Below, in pieces: positions 1,598 to 48,120 of a stretch of DNA of 49,902 nucleotides (the stretch's first letter is position 1; each line of letters begins with the position of its first letter). The DNA lies in sequence record AY308796.1. One strand, written 5' to 3'. The translations under genes were made by a program, and so were the position numbers. This stretch comes from Escherichia phage Tls. Under the pieces are notes generated by a model, which worked only from the letters and a program-made list of their open reading frames with translations, did not search any database and was not told the DNA's origin.

Positions 1598-1855
1598 ATG
1601 TTTGAACTGAAACGCGTAACTGTTGAGATCCTGAATGATGGCTCTTATGACGGCATGAAACACTTAACCTTCCCGATCCGCATTGAGAATTGCATTGATT
1701 ATGGGATTGAAGTTGGAATGGTTGACGTTCCGCTTGATGCACTTATCGCGGCTGGCTATGACAAAGAGAAAGGCCAATGTGCCGATATACCGGATAGCTA
1801 TGAAAGCGACACACATTTCCCGTTCACATATGGCGAATGCCGGATTGTTGATTGA
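1598..1855 (+). CDS. hypothetical protein (85 aa)
   Basis: In-frame ATG with SD gagga; ORF-track start 1547 is TTG lying inside the promoter. Confidence 0.55.
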   Translation: MFELKRVTVEILNDGSYDGMKHLTFPIRIENCIDYGIEVGMVDVPLDALIAAGYDKEKGQCADIPDSYESDTHFPFTYGECRIVD

Positions 1856-1864
1856 GGTTATAAA

Positions 1865-1945
1865 ATGAGCAGTTGGCACAATGAGCACGTAATGCAATTC
1901 TACCGACACAGAATAAAGAAAATGCTAAATAGCACGAATTGCTAA
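1865..1945 (+). CDS. possible micro-ORF (26 aa) ending ...NSTNC inside promoter motif
   Basis: ATG 1865 with SD gagg; stop TAA is the TTGCTAA of the motif; below ORF-track size cutoff. Confidence 0.25.
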   Translation: MSSWHNEHVMQFYRHRIKKMLNSTNC

Positions 1946-1972
1946 AACTAAATCAGGGGCATTTGTTATAGT
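1927..1972 (+). promoter_or_regulatory. motif promoter: AAATAGCACGAATTGCTAAAAC + 18 nt + TGtTATAGT
   Basis: Motif 1927-1948; -10 TATAGT 1967-1972. Confidence 0.55.
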
Positions 1973-2006
1973 GTCCCTAGTTTAGTTAAGCAAAGGAGAA
2001 TCAACA

Positions 2007-2573
2007 ATGTTAAGCATCGAAAAAATCAACTTCCCGATCACCTTTAAATTCTATCAGCCTGACATGCAAGTTACCTTCACCAGTAAAACGCGCGGAGAGT
2101 GGAAAGGTGGTGGAATAACAGGATTTAAACTTGAGTATTTCGTTAACAAGCACAACAACAAAAATCCAGATAATATCCCTGGCAAAGATGGGTATTACAT
2201 AATGGCGGCTTGTGGCAAAGAAGAAAAACGCGAGGATAACGATCTGTTAGACGCTTTGAAATATTTAAATATCAAGCCTGGCCAGGTCAATTTAAACGGT
2301 GCTGTATTCACTGCGTCAGTAGGTGCTAAAGATTACGATTACATTTGCAATGTTGAAAATATGCCAGTTGGCGCAACGCTGTTAGGTGTTCAGCGTGAAA
2401 ATGGCGAATGGGACGAGTTGAAATTTAAACCGCGCCGCATTGAAGTACACGACGATGTTATTTGCTTGCTTTCCGGTTATGCTGGTGGCTACAAGAGCGG
2501 TAATAATTACGGCGCTGAAATCAACATTAAGATCGGTACTAACGTAAAAATCAAAAACAGCACGAATTGCTAA
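2007..2573 (+). CDS. hypothetical protein (188 aa)
   Basis: ATG with SD aaaggag; stop codon TAA lies inside next motif copy. Confidence 0.6.
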   Translation: MLSIEKINFPITFKFYQPDMQVTFTSKTRGEWKGGGITGFKLEYFVNKHNNKNPDNIPGKDGYYIMAACGKEEKREDNDLLDALKYLNIKPGQVNLNGAVFTASVGAKDYDYICNVENMPVGATLLGVQRENGEWDELKFKPRRIEVHDDVICLLSGYAGGYKSGNNYGAEINIKIGTNVKIKNSTNC

Positions 2574-2600
2574 AACAGAATTTTGGGCTTGCTGTATAGT
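2555..2600 (+). promoter_or_regulatory. motif promoter (variant AAACAGCACGAATTGCTAAAAC) + 18 nt + TGTATAGT
   Basis: Motif 2555-2576 overlapping stop of upstream gene; -10 TATAGT 2595-2600. Confidence 0.5.
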
Positions 2601-2633
2601 AAGCTCATACCAAACAACGAAAGGGATCAAAAA

Positions 2634-2948
2634 ATGGAATTAGCACGTAACGCGGTTTATGGCTTACACCTCAAAGGCGGTAAAGGTTCAACATATGCGC
2701 ACCTGTTTCATGTTAACGAGCGCGGCCAGGTTGATATCGCAATGCATGTTGACCAACTGGTTAAAGGTAGTGAGTCCGACAAATTCAGACCGGATTTAAT
2801 TGAATATGATCACGCGTACAGCCACGACCACTGGCTATATGGTTATAAGTTTACAATGCTGGATAGCCATGTTATTGACACAAGCAAGTTAACAAAACGA
2901 GACTATAAGCGCATGGCTCGCAAAATCTTGAAGCAGAAAGCGCAATAG
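2634..2948 (+). CDS. hypothetical protein (104 aa)
   Basis: In-frame ATG with SD aaaggga; ORF-track start 2583 is TTG. Confidence 0.55.
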   Translation: MELARNAVYGLHLKGGKGSTYAHLFHVNERGQVDIAMHVDQLVKGSESDKFRPDLIEYDHAYSHDHWLYGYKFTMLDSHVIDTSKLTKRDYKRMARKILKQKAQ

Positions 2949-2988
2949 CACGAAATGTTAAGCGGTCATGTGTGCTGATTGGTACAAT
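2944..2988 (+). promoter_or_regulatory. degenerate motif promoter (AATAGCACGAAATGTTAAG) + TACAAT
   Basis: Partial motif overlapping stop of upstream gene; -10-like TACAAT 2983-2988. Confidence 0.4.
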
Positions 2989-3020
2989 GACCGCATCAAC
3001 CAACAAGAGAGGATAGAAAA

Positions 3021-3128
3021 ATGTCAAAAGAATCAATTAAGCAGTTTCTGAAATACGGCTCTATGATTGTGCTCGCTACCGTTGTGCTGGCTGGCATCGC
3101 GTATAGCATTATTGAGTTTGCGGGGTAA
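3021..3128 (+). CDS. small membrane protein (35 aa)
   Basis: ATG with SD gagagga; hydrophobic core IVLATVVLAGIAY; stop abuts next start. Confidence 0.4.
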   Translation: MSKESIKQFLKYGSMIVLATVVLAGIAYSIIEFAG

Positions 3129-3131
3129 TTG

Positions 3132-3695
3132 ATGTTTACGATCAACTTGTGGGGAAGGGATTATGTTAATCCCTATGTTGCGACAAAACAGCGTTTCGTT
3201 ATTTTCGACCTAGACGGCACATTGTCAAATGGTGAGCACCGCTTGCACCTGTTGCCAACAGTTGATTTGCATCTTACTGAAAGCTGGAGTGAGTTTAATC
3301 GCGCCGCAAAGGATGATTTACCATTCATGGATAACATAGCCGTTTGCAATGCCATGTTTGATGCCGGATACCTGGTTATCATCCTAACTGGTCGGAGTGA
3401 TGAAGTTGAGGCAGAAACGCGAGCATGGTTAGCTGAAAACGGCGTTTCTTTCGATTGGCTGATTATGCGCCGCGCGGAGGACAACCGGAAAGATACCGTG
3501 ATCAAAGAGGAAGTTTTACGGACTATCGGACTTGATCGCATTGTCGCATGTTGGGATGACTCACCAAACGTTATTTCACACCTGCGCGGCCTGGGCTTGA
3601 CTGTTTACCAGGTCATTGAATACGGCGAGCAGTTACACGATCACTTAAAGTCTCACGGCGTGGAGGAATTGAGCAATGACAGCAAAGTTAATTGA
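3132..3695 (+). CDS. HAD-family phosphatase resembling the 3'-phosphatase domain of T4 polynucleotide kinase
   Basis: HAD motif I FDLDGTL; downstream blocks ILTGR, RKDTVIKEE, WDDSPNV resemble Pnk phosphatase domain (from memory, not searched). Confidence 0.65.
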   Translation: MFTINLWGRDYVNPYVATKQRFVIFDLDGTLSNGEHRLHLLPTVDLHLTESWSEFNRAAKDDLPFMDNIAVCNAMFDAGYLVIILTGRSDEVEAETRAWLAENGVSFDWLIMRRAEDNRKDTVIKEEVLRTIGLDRIVACWDDSPNVISHLRGLGLTVYQVIEYGEQLHDHLKSHGVEELSNDSKVN

Positions 3696-3864
3696 AGATC
3701 GGCATGGTGATAATGTGCTGATTTACAAAAAAGGTGAATCAGTGTGGATTGATTGCAAACATTGGGATGATACAAATTTGCAGTTTCGCGGAATCTTTGA
3801 CAAGAAAGGCGCGTTGGAGTTAGCGGAGCACATCAAGCGGATTGCGGAAGAATTACCAGAATAG
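3676..3864 (+). CDS. hypothetical protein (62 aa)
   Basis: ATG overlapping previous gene end. Confidence 0.5.
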   Translation: MTAKLIEDRHGDNVLIYKKGESVWIDCKHWDDTNLQFRGIFDKKGALELAEHIKRIAEELPE

Positions 3865-3874
3865 AGGGTTTATT

Positions 3875-4060
3875 ATGTTGACTTTTATCTTGATCGCTAT
3901 CGTTTTAATTCTGTATGTTTGCGGCGCTTTCCTGATGCGAGCGCTACTAAAAGAGGCTGACGCTGATGATAAGGATAGTTGGAAGCCGATTGTTTTGTGG
4001 CCTGGCTATATCATCGTGCCGATTTACGAACTAATCCGCGATGGTGAGTTTAAGTGGTAA
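3875..4060 (+). CDS. small membrane protein (61 aa)
   Basis: In-frame ATG with SD agaggg; TM segment LTFILIAIVLILYVCGAFL. Confidence 0.5.
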   Translation: MLTFILIAIVLILYVCGAFLMRALLKEADADDKDSWKPIVLWPGYIIVPIYELIRDGEFKW

Positions 4061-4104
4061 ATAGCACTTTTTGCTAAAACTTGCTAAGGCACATTTGATA
4101 AAGT
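4059..4104 (+). promoter_or_regulatory. motif promoter: AAATAGCACTTTTTGCTAAAAC + 18 nt + TGaTAAAGT in hairpin loop
   Basis: Motif 4059-4080; perfect 8-bp inverted repeat aaggcaca/tgtgcctt (4086-4111) flanks -10 TAAAGT 4099-4104. Confidence 0.55.
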
Positions 4105-4137
4105 GTGCCTTGTCGAGACAAGCAAGGAGAATGACAC

Positions 4138-4392
4138 ATGAAACATTACAGGTGCGGCAGTCTTATTTATCGTGACGATGGGGTTAATATTTTTGTTGCA
4201 TATTATGACAAGATGGAATTTTTTGAATCCATTTACACAAGGCGCGTTTTTAATTCAATGGTTGATGCCGGATTCATGAAAGAGTGCGAGCCACCAAAAG
4301 CGAAGCCGTTTTATAAAAATGTTGATTTCTGGCATAACGCCGTATTGATCACAATTCTGTTAATTCTTTCTATGGTGTTTATTTTCTTATGA
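4138..4392 (+). CDS. hypothetical protein with C-terminal TM segment (84 aa)
   Basis: ATG with SD aaggaga; C-terminal hydrophobic tail. Confidence 0.55.
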   Translation: MKHYRCGSLIYRDDGVNIFVAYYDKMEFFESIYTRRVFNSMVDAGFMKECEPPKAKPFYKNVDFWHNAVLITILLILSMVFIFL

Positions 4393-4571
4393 TGCTTGAT
4401 AACCGTAAAGAGACTGAAAAAACGATCAGCTATCTGCGTGAGCTTGCCGATAGACTGGAAAACGGCGAAGTTGGATTAAATGATATTACTATTGAAGCGC
4501 GTAATATTTGTTGGAACGTTGAAGAAGAAACATTAACACTACAAACTGTTAAGGCGGTAAACAATGGCTAA
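4389..4571 (+). CDS. hypothetical protein (60 aa)
   Basis: ATGA start-stop overlap with upstream gene. Confidence 0.45.
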   Translation: MMLDNRKETEKTISYLRELADRLENGEVGLNDITIEARNICWNVEEETLTLQTVKAVNNG

Positions 4572-5139
4572 AATTATCATCCTAAATGCGCCTCCTGGTG
4601 CTGGTAAAGACACTATCGGCAAGATGATTTCTTTCTATTCGCCTGGTGAGCAATGCCGAATCATTAGCTTTAAAGAGCCAATGTTTGATATTGCATTGGC
4701 TATCCTGGGTAAAGAGAACTATCAGCGTTTCATGTTGGCTTATAATGACAGAGGGAAAAAAGAAAGGCCGCAAACATTCCTGATGGGTATGTCACCGCGT
4801 GAGTTCATGATCTGGATTAGCGAGGATGTAATCAAACCTAAATTCGGCAAGGATTATTTCGGCGTAAGGTTTAACCAGAAAGTAAAAGAGTGTGATGCTC
4901 CTGTTGTTTGCACTGATGGTGGTTTTCCAGATGAAATTATCGCTCTAATCAATGCTGGTAATGAGGTGAAGCTATGCCGCTTGCATCGCGACGGGTTCAC
5001 GTTTGCAGGTGATAGCCGCAACTACATTCGAATCAACCCCTATTACCATAAAAACGGATATAGCGAGCACGATTTTTATTTGACCGATAACAAGCCAATG
5101 GGAACCGTTAACACGATTATCAACATGTTCCTAAAATAG
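4564..5139 (+). CDS. P-loop kinase, dNMP-kinase-like
   Basis: Walker A NAPPGAGKDT near N-terminus, resembling phage deoxynucleotide monophosphate kinases; stop TAG inside next motif. Confidence 0.55.
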   Translation: MAKIIILNAPPGAGKDTIGKMISFYSPGEQCRIISFKEPMFDIALAILGKENYQRFMLAYNDRGKKERPQTFLMGMSPREFMIWISEDVIKPKFGKDYFGVRFNQKVKECDAPVVCTDGGFPDEIIALINAGNEVKLCRLHRDGFTFAGDSRNYIRINPYYHKNGYSEHDFYLTDNKPMGTVNTIINMFLK

Positions 5140-5179
5140 CACGAATTGCTAAAAATTACGCAAGGCCATTTGATATAGT
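5134..5179 (+). promoter_or_regulatory. motif promoter: AAATAGCACGAATTGCTAAAAA + 18 nt + TGaTATAGT in hairpin loop
   Basis: Motif 5134-5155; hairpin aaggcca/tggcctt; -10 TATAGT 5174-5179. Confidence 0.55.
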
Positions 5180-5219
5180 GGCCTTATTCAAGAGAAGCAA
5201 CCAATCAGAGGAATAAGCG

Positions 5220-5417
5220 ATGAAAATTAAATGCACAAAATCAAACACCATGAATCTGACAGTTGGCGCGATTTACCATATGGAAGAAGGTGTAAACGGG
5301 TTTAGCCCAACTGTTACGCATGAATACGGCGGTCAATTCTTCTTAAACGGTAAAGACGGATTATCTGTAAATGTTGGCTCTTTCGTACTTGCAGAGTTTG
5401 AGATCATGGAGGAATAA
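5220..5417 (+). CDS. hypothetical protein (65 aa)
   Basis: ATG with SD gaggaa. Confidence 0.5.
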   Translation: MKIKCTKSNTMNLTVGAIYHMEEGVNGFSPTVTHEYGGQFFLNGKDGLSVNVGSFVLAEFEIMEE

Positions 5418-5418
5418 A

Positions 5419-5583
5419 ATGTTCTGGATTCATTCGCCGCAAGGATTGCTTTATGTGCCTGGCGTTGAATTGGAAGAACGACGCGACGGCGACACGGTAA
5501 ACATCATAACGAAGGATTCAAAAGGCCATACGCTTAAAACGTATGTTTTTAACACTCCGGTTAAGGTTGAAAAAGATGATTAA
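5419..5583 (+). CDS. hypothetical protein (54 aa)
   Basis: In-frame ATG with SD ggagg directly after previous stop; ORF-track start is an upstream extension. Confidence 0.45.
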   Translation: MFWIHSPQGLLYVPGVELEERRDGDTVNIITKDSKGHTLKTYVFNTPVKVEKDD

Positions 5584-5719
5584 GATGTGGTTAATATTTA
5601 TCCTGCTTGTCATAATTGGCAATATTTTGATTGTCGCTGATTGTGTTCCTTTTGGTGGCACTGTTTTGGGTATGGCTGGTTATTACGTTGGGTATAAAGG
5701 GAATAAATTAGATGAATAG
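5576..5719 (+). CDS. possible small membrane protein (47 aa)
   Basis: ATG 5576; strongly hydrophobic; overlaps neighbours by 8 nt each; not in ORF track. Confidence 0.3.
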   Translation: MIKMWLIFILLVIIGNILIVADCVPFGGTVLGMAGYYVGYKGNKLDE

Positions 5720-5957
5720 AAAAATGCTGGTACGCGCATTCGCAAAGATTGCTAAAAGATGGGGTGATTCAGCTAAAACGCCTTACACGTTTAGCATGTA
5801 CGGTTACAAGAATGCTCGCGCATGGGGTCGCATCATTGCAGATAACTATGAATCCGAAATGCTGGAGGATTACGCAAGCTTGATTGATACGCCGCTAAAT
5901 GAATGGGGCCAGGCTGAATATGATTGTTTCGCAGAAGAAGAAATTTCTTGTTGGTAA
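5712..5957 (+). CDS. hypothetical protein (81 aa)
   Basis: ORF-track ORF with ATG. Confidence 0.5.
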   Translation: MNRKMLVRAFAKIAKRWGDSAKTPYTFSMYGYKNARAWGRIIADNYESEMLEDYASLIDTPLNEWGQAEYDCFAEEEISCW

Positions 5958-5968
5958 GGAGAATTAAC

Positions 5969-6481
5969 ATGATTGCTAAAAATAACCTTCACAACCTTTT
6001 AACTAGTGGTAATGATTATCAGGTACTGAATAGCACAAAAGACCGTTATTTTATAGAATGTGATAATGGTGATCGCATGTGGTTGCGTAAGGATTTTTTC
6101 GAAAGCGAACACCTAAGCAATGCAAAGCGGATCGCAGATGAAGCAAGCGCATTAGCAGAGCGTGAACGAATTCGCGATATAGTAGCGGAGCAGGTTAGAA
6201 ATTCTTGCTTGCCTGGTGGCGATATCTTCAAATCAATGCGCGGTGAAATGACGGTTGGAATTCAAGATCGCGTAATTGAAAAATCAGTTGATTATGTAAT
6301 TGAGAATGCGAAATTCAATGCGTTGATTGACTCAGAGCATAACGAATACGTCAAAGTATTAGAGCAACTGCGTGAAGTGCTGCGAGTGCCGGAAGGTGAA
6401 AATATTGTGACTCATGCAAAGGTTGTAAGAGCGTTGGCTGATGCTTTGCTTGACGTTTACCCAGGAATGAAGTGCAAATAG
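5969..6481 (+). CDS. hypothetical protein (170 aa)
   Basis: In-frame ATG with SD aaggag; stop TAG inside next motif. Confidence 0.55.
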   Translation: MIAKNNLHNLLTSGNDYQVLNSTKDRYFIECDNGDRMWLRKDFFESEHLSNAKRIADEASALAERERIRDIVAEQVRNSCLPGGDIFKSMRGEMTVGIQDRVIEKSVDYVIENAKFNALIDSEHNEYVKVLEQLREVLRVPEGENIVTHAKVVRALADALLDVYPGMKCK

Positions 6482-8308: not shown

Positions 8309-8474
8309 TTTAACTATCAGGCGCATGGGTCGCAATTGCGGATCATGTAAGCAAGAATTTGAAACGGTTGTTACAGCATGTAGCGCTGAAATGGCTGTAA
8401 GATTTGCTAAAGAATATTCTGGAGCAGATCCAGAAACGCACCAATTTTCAATCAATTATGTGAGGGCTATATAA
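8292..8474 (+). CDS. hypothetical protein (60 aa)
   Basis: ORF-track ORF with ATG. Confidence 0.45.
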   Translation: MVFKVNLTIRRMGRNCGSCKQEFETVVTACSAEMAVRFAKEYSGADPETHQFSINYVRAI

Positions 8475-8704
8475 TGCTGATGTTTATTGCTGGTTTTGGT
8501 TTTTGTGCGCTGATTTGTTTTGTTCTTTACCTTTGCTTTTCGTGGTGTGCTCTTGGAAGAATTAAAGAAAACGAGCTTGTGATCGCGTCTTACAAAAACA
8601 AAAGCGATGTTTGGGAAATTACACGAAATTACGAAAAGATTGCTGATGAAATTGCATTCAGTCGCAAGTTTGGCAAGCCTGGAAGCATCAAGTATATTGA
8701 TTGA
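8474..8704 (+). CDS. membrane protein (76 aa)
   Basis: N-terminal TM segment MLMFIAGFGFCALICFVLYL; last gene of early block. Confidence 0.5.
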   Translation: MLMFIAGFGFCALICFVLYLCFSWCALGRIKENELVIASYKNKSDVWEITRNYEKIADEIAFSRKFGKPGSIKYID

Positions 8705-8721
8705 TTCAACGCAAAAAGATA

Positions 8722-8746
8722 ACCCGCCTTGCGCGGGTTTTTTTGT
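8722..8746 (+). terminator. rho-independent terminator (aacccgccttgcgcgggttttttt)
   Basis: GC stem plus T7 tract; near-identical paralogue at 24857-24880. Confidence 0.7.
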
Positions 8747-8791
8747 GTCTGCAATTTAGCTATAATCACGCCTCAACAGGAGGATTTTATT

Positions 8792-9316
8792 ATGGCTAAA
8801 AAAACAGAAGCGCCAGCGGCGGAAAGTCTAAACTTTAAAAAGTTATGGAATAAGCGATATTCCGATCTGGTAGGTAGTGAGATTGATAAACGCGCAACGC
8901 TAACGCCGGAACAAGTCATGAACCTGATTGTTCAGTATTTTGAGTGGGCGGAGCTAAACGCCATTAAAGCAGGTGAAACGGCATCATTTCAGGGTCGAGT
9001 GTATCAGGATACGATTCACAAGCCGCGTATTTTTACATGGGAAGGGTTAAAGCTGTTTTGCGGTTTTTCCGGCACAGCACTAGCAAAGTGGAAACTTAAA
9101 CCAGGCTATGATGTTGTTATTGAGTTTGCGGAATCGGTAATCAAAGAACAAAAATACCAGTTAGCTGCAAACGGAATGATTAACAGCACCATGATCGCAA
9201 AAGAGCTTGGCATTGATAAAGGCGACACGTTCAATATTAGCGCCAACGCAAAAGAGCAAGACAATACAGAAGAAGCGATGAAAAACGCAGTCGCAAGCGT
9301 CCTAAGCAAGATTTAA
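8792..9316 (+). CDS. terminase small subunit (putative)
   Basis: 174-aa gene immediately upstream of terminase large subunit; ATG with SD aggagg; ORF-track start is an extension into the terminator. Confidence 0.55.
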   Translation: MAKKTEAPAAESLNFKKLWNKRYSDLVGSEIDKRATLTPEQVMNLIVQYFEWAELNAIKAGETASFQGRVYQDTIHKPRIFTWEGLKLFCGFSGTALAKWKLKPGYDVVIEFAESVIKEQKYQLAANGMINSTMIAKELGIDKGDTFNISANAKEQDNTEEAMKNAVASVLSKI

Positions 9317-9327
9317 AGGTGAATGCT

Positions 9328-10899
9328 ATGTTGATTTGGGAAGATTTAACAAAACTTGAAAAGCTGGCTATTAAGGAATTAAGCACACACGATTTTGATA
9401 CTTTCGTTAAAATCTGGTTCCCGATCCAGCAGGGCGAAAAATGGATTCCTAACTGGCATCACCTTTATATTGCAAGGGCAATTGATGAAATTATTGAAGG
9501 TGTGCGCAAAGATACCATTTTTAACGTAACGCCAGGCTCAGGCAAAACCGAATTGCTTTCGATCCACTTTCCGCCTTATTCATATTTGAAATTGAACAAG
9601 GTGCGAAATCTGAATATTTCTTTTGCTGATACACTGGTTAAACGTAACAGCAAGCGTGTGCGAGATCTGGTTAACTCGCGAGAATGGCAAGAGCTTTACC
9701 CCGCAAAAACTGGTACAAGCAAGGATGATGAATTCCAGATCCTTAATGACGCTGGCAAAGTTCGCCTGGAAATGATTAGTAAATCAATGGGAGGTCAGAT
9801 TACTGGTAGCCGTGGCGGTTACATCACGCCTGGCGTTTATTCCGGTTGTGTGACGCTTGATGATCCAGAAAAGCCGGATGATATGTTTTCGAAGGTGAAG
9901 CGTGAGCGCGGTCAAATGATCGCAAAGAACACCATTCGATCACGTCGCGCACATTCAGAAACGCCGATTATCGTTATTCAGCAGCGTCTACACGCGCAGG
10001 ATATGACCTGGTTTCTGATGAATGGCGGAATGGGTATTGAATTTGATCAGATATCAATTCCGGCGATGGTTACAGAGGAATACGGGAAATCGCTTCCTGA
10101 TTGGTTACAGCCTCATTTTGAAAAAGATGTGCTTTCGTCTGAATACATCGTTATTGACGGCGTGAAGTATTATTCTTTTTGGCCTAGCAAGGAAAGCATT
10201 CATGATCTTAAAGCGCTACGCGATGCGGATTTGTACACGTTCCTTTCTCAGTATCAGCAAGAGCCAATTGCTCTTGGCGGTAACGCAATTAACGTTGGAT
10301 GGTTCCAGTATTACGGAACCGGAGAAAAATCAACGATGCCAAAACCGGATCGCTTTGATTATACGTTTATTACAGCAGATACCGCTCAGAAAGAAGGTGA
10401 GCTAAACGACTACAGCGTTTTATGTTATTGGGGCATGTTCAAAGGCCGTATATATTTTATTGACGGTGTGCGCGGAAAATGGGAAGCGCCAATGTTAGAA
10501 ACGCAGTTTAAAGCGTTTGTTAAACAGTGCTGGAACCGTAACAAAGAATGCGGAAACTTGCGTAAAATTTACGTGGAAGATAAAGCGAGCGGTACAGGTT
10601 TGATCCAGAATTGCCGCAAAGCATTTCCGATAGAAATTACGCCAGTGCAACGCGATAAAGACAAAGTAACGCGCTGCATGGACGCACAGCCAGTGATCAA
10701 GAATGGTTATGTTGTATTGCCTGAATCGCATCACATGCTTGCTGAATTTCTGGCAGAGGCGGCGGCATTCACTTATGATGATAGCCATCCTCATGATGAT
10801 ATTATGGATAACCTTTTTGATGCGGTTAATATTGAGCTTAACCTTGCTGATAATGCGGTTGATAGAATGAAGCGTTTAGCTGGATTAGCGAAGCGTTAA
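9328..10899 (+). CDS. terminase large subunit
   Basis: About 520 aa; Walker A TPGSGKTEL; acidic nuclease-like C-terminal region; position before portal; start ATG 9328 (or GTG 9319). Confidence 0.85.
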   Translation: MLIWEDLTKLEKLAIKELSTHDFDTFVKIWFPIQQGEKWIPNWHHLYIARAIDEIIEGVRKDTIFNVTPGSGKTELLSIHFPPYSYLKLNKVRNLNISFADTLVKRNSKRVRDLVNSREWQELYPAKTGTSKDDEFQILNDAGKVRLEMISKSMGGQITGSRGGYITPGVYSGCVTLDDPEKPDDMFSKVKRERGQMIAKNTIRSRRAHSETPIIVIQQRLHAQDMTWFLMNGGMGIEFDQISIPAMVTEEYGKSLPDWLQPHFEKDVLSSEYIVIDGVKYYSFWPSKESIHDLKALRDADLYTFLSQYQQEPIALGGNAINVGWFQYYGTGEKSTMPKPDRFDYTFITADTAQKEGELNDYSVLCYWGMFKGRIYFIDGVRGKWEAPMLETQFKAFVKQCWNRNKECGNLRKIYVEDKASGTGLIQNCRKAFPIEITPVQRDKDKVTRCMDAQPVIKNGYVVLPESHHMLAEFLAEAAAFTYDDSHPHDDIMDNLFDAVNIELNLADNAVDRMKRLAGLAKR

Positions 10900-39863: not shown

Positions 39864-40086
39864 AAAGGAAACTTGGGAGTTAGCGAAAAAAGGCGGTCTT
39901 GATGAGGGGATCGCCAAAATAGCGCAATATTTCGATATCAAAGACGTGTGCGTTATTGTCGGTAATGAAATGGCATATGTGGAAGAAAAGCCGCGCAAGG
40001 TTCATCGCGTTCCGGCAATTCCGACAACAATCGACTATAAAGAAGTTATTAACAAAACTAAAGAGCAAAAGAAATATTTCAAATGA
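39844..40086 (+). CDS. hypothetical protein (80 aa)
   Basis: In-frame ATG; ORF-track start is an upstream extension. Confidence 0.4.
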   Translation: MKVTKGKKETWELAKKGGLDEGIAKIAQYFDIKDVCVIVGNEMAYVEEKPRKVHRVPAIPTTIDYKEVINKTKEQKKYFK

Positions 40087-40159
40087 GATACATTTACGTT
40101 ATTATATTTCCTCCTGTTATAGCTTGGGTTATTGTTTATTTTTTAGTTATGGGGTTGTC

Positions 40160-40636
40160 ATGAACTATAATGATTTATTTTCATATGAAAATGGAGCGCT
40201 TACAAGAAAGGTGGCGAAATCTAAAAGATGTAGGATTGGCGATCCTGTTGGATGGATCAACGGAAATGGTTACTTGCAAACAAGTGTATCAGGTAAAAAT
40301 GTTCTTGTTCATCGTATAATATGGGAAATGCACAACGGGAAAATTCCAAATGGAATGGAAATTGATCATATAAATCACGATAGAACTGATAACAGGATTG
40401 AAAATCTAAGAATTGTTAATCACAAAGATAATCATAAAAACGTATCAATGCAATCAAATAATAAAACTGGGGTTTGTGGGGTCTGCTTTATAGAAAGATG
40501 CAATAAGTTCAGAGCATCAATAAAGGTTGACGGGGTAACTATATATTTGGGATACTTTAGCAGCATTGATGATGCTAAAAATGCAAGAAAGAAAGCAAAT
40601 GATAGATTTAATTTTCACAAAAACCACGGAGTTTAA
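40160..40636 (+). CDS. HNH homing endonuclease with AP2-like DNA-binding domain
   Basis: HNH core EIDHINHDRTDNRIENLRIVNHKDNHKN plus C-terminal GV.GV......KF.A.I AP2-like region; SD ggggt; paralogue of 47608-48120. Confidence 0.8.
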   Translation: MNYNDLFSYENGALTRKVAKSKRCRIGDPVGWINGNGYLQTSVSGKNVLVHRIIWEMHNGKIPNGMEIDHINHDRTDNRIENLRIVNHKDNHKNVSMQSNNKTGVCGVCFIERCNKFRASIKVDGVTIYLGYFSSIDDAKNARKKANDRFNFHKNHGV

Positions 40637-40639
40637 TAA

Positions 40640-41755
40640 ATGACTGCTAAAAAAATTACGGATGAGCAATTGATTGCAGAGCGCGAAGCGGGTTTAAAGT
40701 TGCGAGAGATTGCTGAAAAGTACGGAATGAGCTTACGCCAGGTTGAGCACCGTCACAGCAAATTGGCTAAGCGTGGCGAAATCTCAACTATCGGATCACC
40801 TGGCTTTGCGGTAATTGGTGAATCGCAGCTTAAACGTGCTAATGGTGAGGTTGTAATTACTTGGACCAAAACGCATAAGGATAAAGAGCAATTAGAAGCA
40901 ATTATGCAAGCGGCTATGGATGCATTTTCGGAAGAAGTGCCGCGCATTAAGCCGCAACCGGAAAAAATTACTGATTACTCGCAAACGCTGGCGCTATATC
41001 CGATCTTTGATATTCACATTGGCGCAATGGCTCATAAGCATGAAAGCGGTGAGAATTACGACACGGCAACGGCGGAAAACGTCATGAATGAGTTTTTCGA
41101 TTATGCAGTTGATAAAGCGCCCAATAGCGAAAAGGCTGTATTGCTGATTGGTGGTGATATGATTCACAGTGACGGTCTGGAGGCTGTAACACCTGCAAGC
41201 GGTCACGTTTTGGATCAAGATAGCCGTTACGCAAAACTTGTTTATGTTGCTATCCGCGCCACGCGTCGAGCAGTAAGCAGAATGCTGGAAAAACATAAAG
41301 AGGTTGAATTGCAGATCATTGAAGGTAATCACGACCAATCAGGAATGATCTGGCTGCGTGCTGCAATGGCGGCGGCGTATGAGAATGAGCCACGCGTAAA
41401 GGTTGATGTTTCTCCGCGTGTCGTGCATCACACGCAATATGGAAAAACGTTCCTGGCTTATCATCATGGTCACACTGTACGCAAGCCAGAAACGCTTTTA
41501 ATGATGTGTGCAGCGGATTGGCGGGAAGATTTCGGAAACTCCAATTCAATGTATGCGCATGTAGGGCATTGGCATCACCAGACTGTTACAGAAACGAGCC
41601 TTGGCATTGTTGAGGTGCATAGCACTATGGCGGCTAAAGATGCTTATGCCGCGCGTGGCGGTTGGCGTTCACGCCGTCGAGCGGCGGTAATTATCTATGA
41701 TAAGGAATATGGCGAGATAGGGCGCTTTATGTTCTACCCTGAAATGATTGCATAA
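40640..41755 (+). CDS. HTH-domain plus calcineurin-like metallophosphoesterase fusion protein
   Basis: N-terminal HTH-like LKLREIAEKYGMSLRQV; phosphoesterase motifs DIHIG, GGDMIHSD, EGNHDQ, GHWHH. Confidence 0.6.
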   Translation: MTAKKITDEQLIAEREAGLKLREIAEKYGMSLRQVEHRHSKLAKRGEISTIGSPGFAVIGESQLKRANGEVVITWTKTHKDKEQLEAIMQAAMDAFSEEVPRIKPQPEKITDYSQTLALYPIFDIHIGAMAHKHESGENYDTATAENVMNEFFDYAVDKAPNSEKAVLLIGGDMIHSDGLEAVTPASGHVLDQDSRYAKLVYVAIRATRRAVSRMLEKHKEVELQIIEGNHDQSGMIWLRAAMAAAYENEPRVKVDVSPRVVHHTQYGKTFLAYHHGHTVRKPETLLMMCAADWREDFGNSNSMYAHVGHWHHQTVTETSLGIVEVHSTMAAKDAYAARGGWRSRRRAAVIIYDKEYGEIGRFMFYPEMIA

Positions 41756-47394: not shown

Positions 47395-47636
47395 AATTTA
47401 ACCTCATGATATTCTATGAATTCTTGCACATATGCGCATTCGCGCGGCGACTCCTGGACTTTTAGGACTTCACAGCCACCATTAAACAGATAGCAATGAT
47501 GGCAAAGGTTGCCGCCTACGTTTTCCTCAGCGATCTGAATTCCGGTACACAAACCGCCACCAAACCTATGAACGAAATGATAAGCGGAACACCTGCAATT
47601 AATTTGCCTACGCTTTCTTTTTGCCGTGGTTTTCAT
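47391..47636 (-). CDS. Cys-rich hypothetical protein (81 aa)
   Basis: Cys pairs CRC...C and CHHC...C; overlaps HNH gene end. Confidence 0.5.
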   Translation of the reverse strand: MKTTAKRKRRQINCRCSAYHFVHRFGGGLCTGIQIAEENVGGNLCHHCYLFNGGCEVLKVQESPRECAYVQEFIEYHEVKL

Positions 47637-48120
47637 GAAAACCCCTGTTTATTTTTTCTCTCTCAATAGCCATGCCAGCTAATTCAGAAGAATCAAAAAG
47701 ACCAATATGGATTTCTTTTCCGTCTACTTTTAATCTTGCTCTCCATTTTTTAGCTACGGAATGCCACGACACACCGTTAAACCCTGATTTATTTGCTTTG
47801 CAATATGATTGATTTTTCCCGTTTTCATTTGCACTAACAAGGCGTAGATTTTCTATCCTGTTATCAGTTCTATCGTGGTTTATATGATCAATCTGCATTC
47901 CATCTGGAATTTTGCCATTATGCATTTCCCAAACGATTCGATGCGCAAGATAACTTTTATCATTCAGAGATATCTCTATGTATCCATCATTTCTTATGCT
48001 TCCGGCAACCTTTCCAGCCCATTTTTTATTCCATGCAGAGTCCCTATATGATCTTATGTTTGTGCGCGGCTTTCTTATAAGATTTCCGCAATCATATATA
48101 AAAAAGTCGTGCCAATTCAT
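47608..48120 (-). CDS. HNH homing endonuclease with AP2-like domain (second copy)
   Basis: Core QIDHINHDRTDNRIENLRLVSANENGKN and AP2-like GVSWH....KWRARLKVDG; SD ggag; paralogue of 40160-40636. Confidence 0.8.
   Translation of the reverse strand: MNWHDFFIYDCGNLIRKPRTNIRSYRDSAWNKKWAGKVAGSIRNDGYIEISLNDKSYLAHRIVWEMHNGKIPDGMQIDHINHDRTDNRIENLRLVSANENGKNQSYCKANKSGFNGVSWHSVAKKWRARLKVDGKEIHIGLFDSSELAGMAIEREKINRGFHENHGKKKA

What the first reader, a model, noticed from the sequence alone, without database searches (positions are those of the whole stretch)
3132..5139. Stand-alone Pnk-like 3'-phosphatase separated from a P-loop kinase
Gene 3132-3695 encodes a HAD phosphatase resembling the 3'-phosphatase domain of T4 polynucleotide kinase but has no kinase domain. 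A separate P-loop kinase (4564-5139, NAPPGAGKDT) lies three genes downstream. No RNA ligase is recognisable. This could be a split nucleic-acid end-healing system or a nucleotide-metabolism pair.
Basis: partly seen in the sequence, partly recalled or inferred. Interest (0 to 1): 0.45.

Follow-up and report, generated by a model that had tools for sequence, protein, structure and literature searches.

The report
Phage phosphatase–nucleotide kinase–phosphoesterase gene cassette
The stand-alone Pnk-like phosphatase and the P-loop kinase of this T1-like phage are real and functionally linked, but they belong to a dispersed three-gene cassette (with a metallophosphoesterase) whose kinase resembles phage dNMP kinases, so nucleotide salvage is more likely than a split T4-style RNA-repair system.

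Summary
Both genes are present as described. The window is a complete Tlsvirus-type T1-like genome, probably phage TLS itself.

ORF 3132-3695 is a stand-alone HAD phosphatase of the Pnkp type. All nine residues I recall as essential for T4 Pnk phosphatase are matched, and there is no kinase domain. ORF 4564-5139 is a P-loop kinase. Its fold and profile match phage dNMP kinases (T4 gp1, T5-type Dnk), not the Pnk kinase domain. No ligase is detectable.

New here: the two genes are almost always linked. In 76 of 80 kinase-seeded loci and 80 of 80 HAD-seeded loci they are co-oriented neighbours. In three rare protein clusters they are fused into one protein. In many phages of at least three lineages they form a compact operon, metallophosphoesterase→HAD→kinase. 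The window carries that third gene at 40640-41755.

Best reading (about 0.5): a cassette for nucleic-acid breakdown and dNMP salvage. Main rival (about 0.25): a non-canonical DNA end-healing module that relies on host ligase.

The pair is already annotated, partly wrongly, as "polynucleotide kinase" and "dNMP kinase". The adjacency has been mentioned in one paper. The fusion and the spread across phage families appear undescribed. Interest is moderate.

The parts
3132..3695 (+). Stand-alone Pnkp-type HAD phosphatase (TLS/LL5 gp09, usually annotated 'polynucleotide kinase'). No kinase domain.
   Evidence: Pfam HAD_PNKP E 6.8e-19. phrog_415 E 7e-69. Family profile against PDB: Pnkp1 4xrp E 6e-18, T4 Pnk 1ltq E 7e-11. 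D26, D28, R37, T86, R88, D121, K125, D142 and D143 align to T4 D165, D167, R176, S211, R213, D254, K258, D277 and D278.
4564..5139 (+). P-loop kinase of the T4 gp1 / T5 Dnk (dNMP kinase) lineage, with a 'GAGKDT' P-loop (TLS/LL5 gp14).
40640..41755 (+). Metallophosphoesterase with an N-terminal HTH (phrog_704, 'DNA repair exonuclease'). This is the third member of the cassette, relocated in this genome to sit next to the lysis genes.
   Evidence: phrog_704 E 1.6e-150. 45% identical to the gene that immediately follows the HAD-kinase fusion in L004. Invariant motifs DxHxG, GDxxH, GNHD, HGH and GHxH. Directly precedes HAD and kinase in 22 of 80 kinase-seeded loci and 34 of 80 HAD-seeded loci.
3676..4571 (+). 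Four small ORFs of unknown function between the HAD and the kinase (3676-3864, about 3875-4060, 4138-4392, 4389-4571). They are not conserved members of the cassette.
   Evidence: PHROGs of unknown function only. The HAD-to-kinase gap ranges from -1 to 2158 bp among relatives.
2944..2961 (+). Copy of the 18-bp palindromic early-promoter-associated motif, upstream of the transcription unit that contains the HAD gene.
   Evidence: 9 copies against 0.06 expected. Each is followed at a fixed distance by a TGnTATAGT-like extended -10 element, an RBS and an ATG.
4060..4077 (+). Copy of the same motif (3 mismatches), upstream of the transcription unit that ends with the kinase.
5135..5152 (+). Exact copy of the same motif, overlapping the kinase stop codon. 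It marks the start of the next unit.
1865..1945 (+). 26-aa Stp-like peptide (MSSWHNEHVMQFYRHRIKKMLNSTNC). Context only, not a conserved cassette member.

Best explanation
The two genes are parts of a conserved three-gene phage cassette. Its members are a metallophosphoesterase with an HTH (MPE, here at 40640-41755), a Pnkp-type HAD 3'-phosphatase (3132-3695) and a gp1/Dnk-type P-loop nucleotide kinase (4564-5139). In many phages the three form one tightly packed operon. In this Tlsvirus genome the cassette has been pulled apart. HAD and kinase sit in two consecutive early transcription units that use the same promoter type, and the MPE sits next to the lysis genes. Proposed mechanism: T1/TLS-type phages degrade the host chromosome and rebuild their DNA from the products. 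The MPE acts as a DNA-directed nuclease or phosphodiesterase. The HAD enzyme removes 3'-phosphates from DNA ends, oligonucleotides or mononucleotides that would otherwise block exonucleases or be unusable. The kinase converts the released dNMPs to dNDPs, and host NDP kinase then supplies dNTPs. Shown here: family membership of all three proteins, conservation of the phosphatase catalytic residues, gene linkage, the fusion, and the absence of a ligase. Inferred: the substrates of all three enzymes and the salvage role.
For: 1. HAD-kinase linkage. A HAD gene lies co-oriented within about 2.2 kb upstream of the kinase in 76 of 80 kinase-seeded viral loci, and abuts it (35 bp or less) in 23. The kinase lies downstream of the HAD in 80 of 80 HAD-seeded loci.
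2. Fusion. Three protein clusters (P0259 403 aa, P0389 413 aa, P0264 461 aa) are 37-74% identical over their full length and sit on independent contigs up to 60 kb. Each carries HAD_PNKP at the N-terminus and this kinase at the C-terminus.
3. MPE linkage. The MPE abuts the HAD in 21 of 80 kinase-seeded loci and precedes it in 34 of 80 HAD-seeded loci. It immediately follows the fusion gene in two different phage backgrounds. The same order is seen in Kagunavirus P AB-2017 and in the T7-like Aeromonas phage CF7, next to exonuclease and endonuclease VII. In phiR8-01 it is MPE then kinase.
5. Context of distant homologues. They sit beside ThyX and NrdA in Vequintavirus and beside DNA polymerase, DNA ligase and dUTPase in Chaseviridae.
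6. Literature. T1 and TLS degrade host DNA and reuse its nucleotides, and the responsible genes are unidentified (PMC11447400). PMC13164509 independently guessed 'nucleotide supply' for the PNK/dNMP-kinase genes that follow the exonuclease.
Against: No substrate has been tested for any member of this kinase clade. The link to characterised dNMP kinases is remote: about 15% identity to gp1, and hhalign to gp1 reaches only 54%. The D-[VT]-R motif after strand 3, present in gp1 and Dnk, is D-G-G-F in this family, so one conserved arginine is missing. The acceptor chemistry could therefore differ. A phosphatase fused to a kinase is the classic architecture of end-healing enzymes (T4 Pnkp, mammalian PNKP). 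It is not an obvious design for a salvage pathway, where a phosphatase and a dNMP kinase could work against each other. It is unknown which nuclease, if any, produces 3'-phosphate ends during T1/TLS infection. MPE nucleases of the Mre11/SbcD type leave 3'-OH ends (established knowledge).
Confidence: 0.5

Rival explanations
1. Non-canonical DNA end-healing module. The HAD removes 3'-phosphates and the gp14-type kinase phosphorylates 5'-OH ends of broken DNA, as a functional analogue of PNKP built with a non-orthologous kinase. The MPE trims damaged ends, and host NAD-dependent ligase seals the nick.
For: The HAD is a true Pnkp-type phosphatase with every T4 catalytic residue I recall. The rare fusion has phosphatase then kinase, the same order I recall for mammalian PNKP. 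The cassette includes an HTH-bearing MPE with Mre11/SbcD-like motifs, annotated as a DNA repair exonuclease. In Chaseviridae a DNA ligase gene overlaps the start of the kinase gene. The missing D-x-R arginine separates this clade from characterised dNMP kinases.
Against: The kinase fold and profile point to dNMP kinases, not Pnk. In the hhalign alignment to T4 Pnk only the P-loop matches. The position of the Pnk general base D35 is hydrophobic in this family, and R38 aligns to K37. Distant homologues sit with ThyX, NrdA and Dut. No source of 5'-OH/3'-P DNA breaks is known in these infections.
Confidence: 0.25
2. T4-like tRNA/RNA repair. Stp activates a PrrC-type anticodon nuclease, HAD plus kinase heal the cleaved tRNA, and a host or unrecognised ligase seals it.
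For: A 26-aa Stp homologue lies 1.2 kb upstream of the HAD. The HAD's closest solved relatives are RNA-repair enzymes, Pnkp1 and T4 Pnk.
Against: No ligase is found in the window or near the fusion genes. E. coli RtcB joins 3'-P or 2',3'-cyclic-P ends to 5'-OH ends, so healing would destroy its substrate (established knowledge). Stp is present in only 16 of 88 sequences examined, whereas HAD plus kinase are near-universal. The kinase is not Pnk-type.
Confidence: 0.07
3. Nucleotide-pool sanitising or counter-defence. The HAD dephosphorylates modified or signalling mononucleotides released by host-DNA breakdown, such as m6dAMP, the trigger of the Metis defence. The kinase channels canonical dNMPs onward.
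For: Metis pairs a calcineurin-like phosphoesterase (MisA) with a HAD phosphatase (MisB) that hydrolyses m6dAMP, and it senses phage-induced genome degradation (bioRxiv 10.1101/2025.11.05.686725). The HAD family has a conserved 15-aa insertion at the flap/cap position that T4 Pnk and Pnkp1 lack, which could narrow the active site. It also has a weak Pfam match to class B acid phosphatases, which I recall as nucleotidases.
Against: The similarity to Metis is at superfamily level only. MisB is reported as PF13419, whereas this protein is HAD_PNKP, and there are no PADLOC hits. There is no experimental link of Metis to T1-like phages in the text I read. This is pure analogy.
Confidence: 0.1
4. 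The two genes have unrelated functions and are merely neighbours in the early region.
For: In this window they are separated by four ORFs and a promoter-like motif.
Against: Linkage is near-obligate in both directions, translationally coupled operons are found in three phage lineages, and gene fusions exist.
Confidence: 0.05

Closest known systems
T4 polynucleotide kinase-phosphatase (Pnkp/PseT), C-terminal HAD 3'-phosphatase domain, and Capnocytophaga Pnkp1
   Same: Same HAD subfamily (Pfam HAD_PNKP). The DxDxT nucleophile motif and the counterparts of R176, S211, R213, D254, K258, D277 and D278 are all present. Profile E-values are 6e-18 to Pnkp1 and 7e-11 to T4 Pnk.
   Different: It is stand-alone, with no N-terminal Pnk-type kinase. 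It has a conserved 15-aa insertion after the R176 equivalent (LHLLPxxDLHLTESWxEFN). Its partner is a gp1/Dnk-type kinase and an MPE instead of an RNA ligase.
T4 gene 1 dNMP kinase (PDB 1dek) and T5-type dNMP kinase (Dnk)
   Different: It is shorter, 191 aa against about 240 aa. The D-[VT]-R motif after strand 3 is replaced by D-G-G-F. A GDSR motif sits in the lid where gp1 and Dnk have a His. It is obligately linked, and sometimes fused, to a Pnk-type phosphatase. Its substrate is untested.
Mammalian PNKP and bacterial Pnkp (Clostridium thermocellum Pnkp/Hen1 system)
   Same: They combine a kinase with a phosphoesterase for end healing. Mammalian PNKP has the phosphatase-then-kinase order seen in the rare fusions, and C. 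thermocellum Pnkp uses a calcineurin-type MPE as its phosphatase. These comparisons rest on my own knowledge.
   Different: The kinase here is not of the Pnk/AAA_33 type. There is no ligase or adenylyltransferase domain and no Hen1. The MPE is a separate protein with an HTH.
Metis defence system (MisA calcineurin-like phosphoesterase plus MisB HAD phosphatase)
   Same: It pairs an MPE with a HAD phosphatase and concerns mononucleotides released by host-genome degradation.
   Different: It is bacterial rather than viral, uses a different HAD subfamily, has no kinase, and gives no sequence-level match.

Membership tests
Pnkp-type HAD 3'-phosphatase (Pfam PF25109 HAD_PNKP), tested on ORF 3132-3695 | Score above the Pfam gathering threshold for HAD_PNKP | tested here: met
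   68.9 bits against a cut-off of 27.6, E 6.8e-19
Pnkp-type HAD 3'-phosphatase (Pfam PF25109 HAD_PNKP), tested on ORF 3132-3695 | HAD motif I DxDxT, plus the T4 Pnk phosphatase residues I recall as essential: R176, S211, R213, D254, K258, D277, D278 | tested here: met
   D26, D28, T30, R37, T86, R88, D121, K125, D142 and D143 align to the T4 residues. The list of essential T4 residues is from my memory of the Shuman-lab mutagenesis.
Pnkp-type HAD 3'-phosphatase (Pfam PF25109 HAD_PNKP), tested on ORF 3132-3695 | 3'-phosphatase activity on polynucleotide ends | not testable with these tools
   Needs an enzyme assay.
Bifunctional T4-type Pnkp (kinase plus phosphatase in one protein) | N-terminal Pnk-type P-loop kinase domain (AAA_33 type) fused to the HAD domain | tested here: not met
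   The 187-aa protein has no P-loop. The top 120 close homologues are 160-264 aa and carry only HAD-family Pfam domains.
Pnk-type polynucleotide 5'-kinase, tested on ORF 4564-5139 | Closest structural and profile similarity to Pnk kinase domains, with a general-base Asp (T4 D35) at the end of strand 2 | tested here: not met
Phage dNMP kinase family (T4 gp1 / T5 Dnk), tested on ORF 4564-5139 | gp1-like fold | tested here: met
Phage dNMP kinase family (T4 gp1 / T5 Dnk), tested on ORF 4564-5139 | Sequence-profile homology, including the GKD[T] P-loop and the acceptor-side motifs | tested here: met
   hhalign Prob 97.2, E 4.4e-11 to a T5-type Dnk. Prob 54, E 1.3e-4 to gp1. phrog_139 E 5.9e-49.
Phage dNMP kinase family (T4 gp1 / T5 Dnk), tested on ORF 4564-5139 | D-[VT]-R motif after strand 3 (SDVRFENE in Dnk, PDTRQDHE in gp1) | tested here: not met
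   The family has the invariant sequence T/S-D-G-G-F-x-x-E and no arginine at that position.
Phage dNMP kinase family (T4 gp1 / T5 Dnk), tested on ORF 4564-5139 | dNMP to dNDP phosphotransfer activity | not testable with these tools
   Needs an enzyme assay.
T4-type RNA repair pathway (Pnkp plus Rnl1/Rnl2) | An RNA ligase encoded by the phage | tested here: not met
   No ligase in the LL5 annotation. No ligase among the Pfam or PHROG hits of the unassigned ORFs. The KxDG sweep was negative. None lies near the fusion genes.
Calcineurin-like metallophosphoesterase superfamily, tested on ORF 40640-41755 | Motifs DxH, GDxxD/H, GNH[DE], H and GHxH in that order | tested here: met
   D124-x-H126, G172-D173-x-x-H176, G229-N-H-D232, H276-G-H278 and G309-H310-x-H312 are invariant in 11 homologues. 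Pfam PF00149 itself was not reached.
Metis defence system (MisA/MisB) | Sequence-level homology to MisA or MisB, or to known defence models | tested here: inconclusive

The most novel reading that the evidence does not exclude
The MPE-HAD-kinase cassette is a previously unrecognised, widely mobile phage module. In it a Pnk-type 3'-phosphatase has recruited a dNMP-kinase-fold enzyme as a polynucleotide or 3'-nucleotide 5'-kinase. That would make it an independently evolved, ligase-less end-healing or nucleotide-reprocessing machine. It would either repair phage DNA nicked by host defences or convert otherwise unusable or immunogenic breakdown products (3'-phosphorylated or methylated nucleotides) into substrates, thereby also blinding nucleotide-sensing defences such as Metis.
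Probability: 0.2. Interest if true: 0.7.

Novelty: new variant of a known kind. Interest (0 to 1): 0.42.

Why it matters
Hundreds of T1-like, Kagunavirus and T7-like phage genomes carry a gene labelled "polynucleotide kinase" that has no kinase domain. The label hides the fact that this phosphatase always travels with a gp1/Dnk-type kinase and often with a metallophosphoesterase.

T1 and TLS are known to recycle the host chromosome, yet the genes responsible have not been identified (PMC11447400). This cassette is a concrete and testable candidate for part of that pathway.

If the kinase instead acts on polynucleotide ends, the cassette would be an independently assembled end-healing system. 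If the phosphatase clears modified dNMPs, it would bear on newly described nucleotide-sensing immunity. Either way the annotation should be corrected, and simple enzyme assays would settle the question.

Tried and rejected
2. Pfam and NCBIfam gave nothing above threshold for the kinase.
3. The 386-aa ORF next to the fusion gene was examined as a possible hidden ligase. It turned out to be the phrog_704 metallophosphoesterase, with no PDB sequence match.
A profile search of the MPE against PDB found only the HTH. The MPE subfamily (nuclease or phosphatase) therefore remains unresolved. I ran no further search on a single-sequence model, since no fold search was left.
5. The PADLOC scan for defence-system homology was negative.
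6. A simple sigma-70 promoter and terminator scan of 1800-5400 was uninformative. The repeated motif was instead characterised by direct alignment of its nine copies.
7. The retron Eco2 paper mentions PNK only as a laboratory reagent. Literature searches found no biochemical work on these Drexlerviridae proteins.
8. The 188-aa ORF at 2007-2573 was considered as a possible 2H/LigT-type enzyme and rejected: it has no Pfam hit and no HxT/S motifs on inspection.
Full report
**What the window is**

The 49,902-bp window is a complete T1-like siphovirus genome of the Tlsvirus type (Drexlerviridae, Tempevirinae). Its best DNA matches are Stevie_ev116, LL5, Stevie and CF1, at about 90-93% identity. A 2024 paper gives the genome of phage TLS as exactly 49,902 bp and names Gp09 "polynucleotide kinase" and Gp14 "deoxynucleoside monophosphate kinase" (PMC11447400). 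The gene order and numbering fit, so the window is probably TLS itself. I could not confirm this by sequence identity, because no record at 99% or above was in the phage collection.

**Observation check**

Both ORFs exist at the stated coordinates. Each has hundreds of homologues, almost all on contigs of about 50 kb. Four small ORFs lie between them, corresponding to LL5 gp10-gp13, so "three genes downstream" is slightly off.

**The HAD protein (3132-3695)**

- It passes Pfam HAD_PNKP (E 6.8e-19) over residues 22-162, and nothing else in its 187 residues resembles a kinase.
- A profile built from 19 family members hits Pnkp1 (4xrp, E 6e-18) and T4 Pnk (1ltq and 5uj0, E about 1e-11) and no other solved protein below 0.01.
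- Residue mapping to T4 Pnk is D26/D28 to D165/D167, R37 to R176, T86-G-R88 to S211-G-R213, D121 to D254, K125 to K258, and D142/D143 to D277/D278. As far as I recall the Shuman-lab mutagenesis, that is the full set of residues essential for T4 3'-phosphatase activity.
- One family-specific feature is a conserved 15-residue insertion after R37 (LHLLPxxDLHLTESWxEFN). Both T4 Pnk and Pnkp1 lack it.
- The top 120 close homologues are 160-264 aa and carry only HAD-family Pfam domains. The common annotation "polynucleotide kinase" is therefore a misnomer, since the protein is only the phosphatase half.

**The P-loop protein (4564-5139)**

- Pfam, NCBIfam and PDB sequence searches give nothing significant. 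PHROGs places it in phrog_139, "dNMP kinase" (E 5.9e-49).
- An AlphaFold2 model built on a 25-sequence alignment is confident, with mean pLDDT 92.9.
- Against predicted viral structures, the hits after close family members are mostly proteins annotated as dNMP kinases. They include the Dnk of the T5-like Pantoea phage AAS21 (TMq 0.74). No polynucleotide kinase appears.
- Profile comparison gives 97.2% probability (E 4.4e-11) to that T5-type Dnk, with shared GAGKDT, SFxEP..A.AILG and NRxTKE.
- The match to a T4-type gp1 is 54% (E 1.3e-4) over the same motifs.
- The match to a T4-type Pnk is confined to the P-loop. The position of Pnk's D35 is hydrophobic in this family, and R38 aligns to the invariant K37.
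- One caveat: the D-[VT]-R motif that follows strand 3 in Dnk (SDVRFENE) and gp1 (PDTRQDHE) is T/S-D-G-G-F-x-x-E in this family. The family belongs to the gp1/Dnk lineage but is not a typical member.
- An exhaustive profile search shows the family is large, with 3,763 cluster representatives at 50% identity and E of 1e-3 or better. Most are stand-alone proteins of about 190 aa.

**The two genes are a functional pair**

*Fusion.* Among the longer members of the kinase family, P0259 (403 aa) and P0264 (461 aa) carry an N-terminal HAD_PNKP domain, and its sequence is plainly orthologous to gp09. A third fusion, P0389 (413 aa), also exists. The three are 37-74% identical over their full length and lie on independent contigs of up to 60 kb.

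*Linkage.* I built HMMs of the three proteins and scanned the fetched loci.
- Of 80 viral contigs fetched with the kinase profile, 76 have a gp09-type HAD co-oriented within about 2.2 kb upstream. In one of the four exceptions only 473 bp of upstream DNA was available.
- The HAD-to-kinase gap is 35 bp or less in 23 loci, 36-250 bp in 15, 251-1000 bp in 22 and over 1 kb in 16.
- In the reverse direction, all 80 contigs fetched with the HAD profile have the kinase downstream.
- The two samples overlap, and both are biased toward relatives detectable with the peptide patterns used.

**A third partner**

In both phage backgrounds that carry the fusion, the next gene is a 386-aa protein of phrog_704, "DNA repair exonuclease". 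The window's ORF 40640-41755 (371 aa) is 45% identical to it.

The family has the five calcineurin-type metallophosphoesterase motifs as invariant residues (DxHxG, GDxxH, GNHD, HGH, GHxH) and an N-terminal HTH. Its divergence keeps it below the Pfam threshold.

Gene order across phages:
- In 22 of the 80 kinase-seeded loci and 34 of the 80 HAD-seeded loci the order is MPE→HAD→kinase. Stops and starts overlap or abut, for example 8386-9510, 9507-9998 and 10001-10537.
- In Kagunavirus P AB-2017 the three genes form an isolated plus-strand island among minus-strand tail genes.
- In the T7-like Aeromonas phage CF7 the order is exonuclease, endonuclease, MPE-like ORF, HAD, kinase, RNA polymerase.
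- In Yersinia phage phiR8-01 the MPE and the kinase remain and the HAD is replaced by a 36-aa ORF.

The Tlsvirus arrangement in the window is therefore a dispersed version of a compact, mobile cassette. A 2026 paper noted in passing that "polynucleotide kinase" and "dNMP kinase" genes most often follow the "DNA repair exonuclease" in Drexlerviridae lacking an SH3 gene, and guessed that they enhance nucleotide supply (PMC13164509).

**Local anatomy**

An 18-bp palindromic motif, AATAGCACGAATTGCTAA (TAGCA-N5-TGCTA), occurs nine times against 0.06 expected. Every copy is co-oriented with the local genes. Each copy is followed at a fixed distance by an extended -10-like TGnTATAGT element, then an RBS and a start codon.

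Copies at 2944, 4060 and 5135 bracket two consecutive units. The first contains the HAD gene, and the second ends with the kinase. This suggests co-regulated early expression, which is an inference.

**Ligase**

No ligase was found by any of these routes:
- annotation in LL5;
- Pfam and PHROG scans of the larger or unassigned ORFs;
- a KxDG motif sweep;
- inspection of the genes around the fusion genes.

**Mechanism**

Four points favour nucleotide metabolism.
1. The kinase's nearest relatives in fold and profile are dNMP kinases.
2. Distant homologues sit with ThyX and NrdA (Vequintavirus) or with DNA polymerase, DNA ligase and dUTPase (Chaseviridae).
3. In T7-like phages the cassette lies beside the nucleases that, in T7, break down host DNA (my knowledge).
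4. T1 and TLS rebuild their DNA from host nucleotides, and the genes responsible are unknown.

I therefore propose that the MPE cuts DNA, the HAD clears 3'-phosphates, and the kinase makes dNDPs. I put this at about 0.5.

The main rival is DNA end healing with a non-orthologous kinase and the host ligase, at about 0.25. It is kept alive by the fusion architecture, by the fact that the phosphatase is a true Pnk-type enzyme, by the Mre11-like flavour of the MPE, and by the missing D-x-R arginine.

T4-style tRNA repair is unlikely, at about 0.07. There is no ligase. Host RtcB needs the very ends that healing would remove (my knowledge). The Stp-like peptide is present in only 16 of 88 sequences examined.

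A more speculative reading, at about 0.1, is that the HAD clears modified or signalling mononucleotides. It is prompted by the Metis defence, which pairs an MPE with a HAD that hydrolyses m6dAMP. There is no sequence-level support for it.

**Novelty and score**

The two genes are already annotated, and their adjacency has been mentioned in the literature. I found no prior description of the following:
- the natural HAD-kinase fusion;
- the near-obligate two-way linkage;
- the three-gene operon recurring in Drexlerviridae, Guernseyvirinae and Autographiviridae;
- the point that the kinase partner is gp1/Dnk-type and not Pnk-type.

I rate it a new variant of a known kind, with moderate interest.

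Noticed in passing
window 1865-1945 (+): An unannotated 26-aa ORF, MSSWHNEHVMQFYRHRIKKMLNSTNC. It is 13/18 identical to the Stp peptide of T4-like phages, annotated there as 'activator of host PrrC lysyl-tRNA endonuclease'. U136B annotates it as putative Stp, whereas LL5 and CF1 leave it unannotated. It was found in 16 of 88 sequences examined, always upstream of the HAD gene. The phage thus has the PrrC trigger and a Pnk-type phosphatase but no RNA ligase.
   Followed up: partly
window 1928, 2556, 2944, 4060, 5135, 30221 (+); 35224, 45137, 47227 (-): An 18-bp palindromic motif, AATAGCACGAATTGCTAA (TAGCA-N5-TGCTA), occurs 9 times with up to 3 mismatches, against 0.06 expected. Every copy is co-oriented with the local genes and is followed at a fixed spacing by a TGnTATAGT-like extended -10 element, an RBS and an ATG. 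It is probably a family of phage early promoters with a shared operator.
   Followed up: partly
window 1943, 2571, 47230 (-); also homologues P0078 and P0110: Unrelated ORFs end in the same residues, '...NSTNC', because the promoter-associated motif overlaps their 3' ends (AAT AGC ACG AAT TGC TAA). Examples are Stp, ORF 2007-2573, a 56-aa minus-strand ORF, and some kinase homologues in other phages.
   Followed up: partly
window 40640-41755 (+): The ORF annotated 'DNA repair exonuclease' (phrog_704) has all the calcineurin-type metallophosphoesterase motifs plus an N-terminal HTH, yet it falls below Pfam's Metallophos threshold and has no PDB sequence match. Whether it is a nuclease or a phosphatase is unknown. 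PMC13164509 reports it in 508 of 522 Drexlerviridae.
   Followed up: partly
public records OR786094.1, MG065670.1, MG065680.1 (hits H2/H26, H31, H32): Records named 'Streptococcus phage MBBL140' and 'Campylobacter phage A121/A113' are T1-like genomes of 48-50 kb. MBBL140 matches this window's 2500-6000 region at 93% DNA identity. The A121 and A113 records carry kinase homologues at about 53% protein identity. The host labels look wrong, possibly through laboratory contamination by T1-like phages.
   Followed up: no
window 39956-40636 (+) and 47608-48120 (-): Two HNH_3 homing-endonuclease-like ORFs. The second also has a weak AP2 domain match. The first directly precedes the MPE gene and, at 226 aa, is longer than its 160-aa LL5 counterpart.
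   Followed up: no
L092 (Escherichia phage SKA49, Chaseviridae) 2235-3609: A LigD-type DNA ligase gene overlaps by 8 bp the start of a homologue of the kinase, and a dUTPase gene follows. This is the only context I saw where this kinase family sits next to a ligase.
   Followed up: no
P0382 (363 aa, metagenomic): A kinase-family member with an N-terminal extension of about 170 aa containing an HTH. It recalls the HTH at the N-terminus of the MPE. The meaning is unknown, and a mis-called start or a fusion is possible.
   Followed up: no
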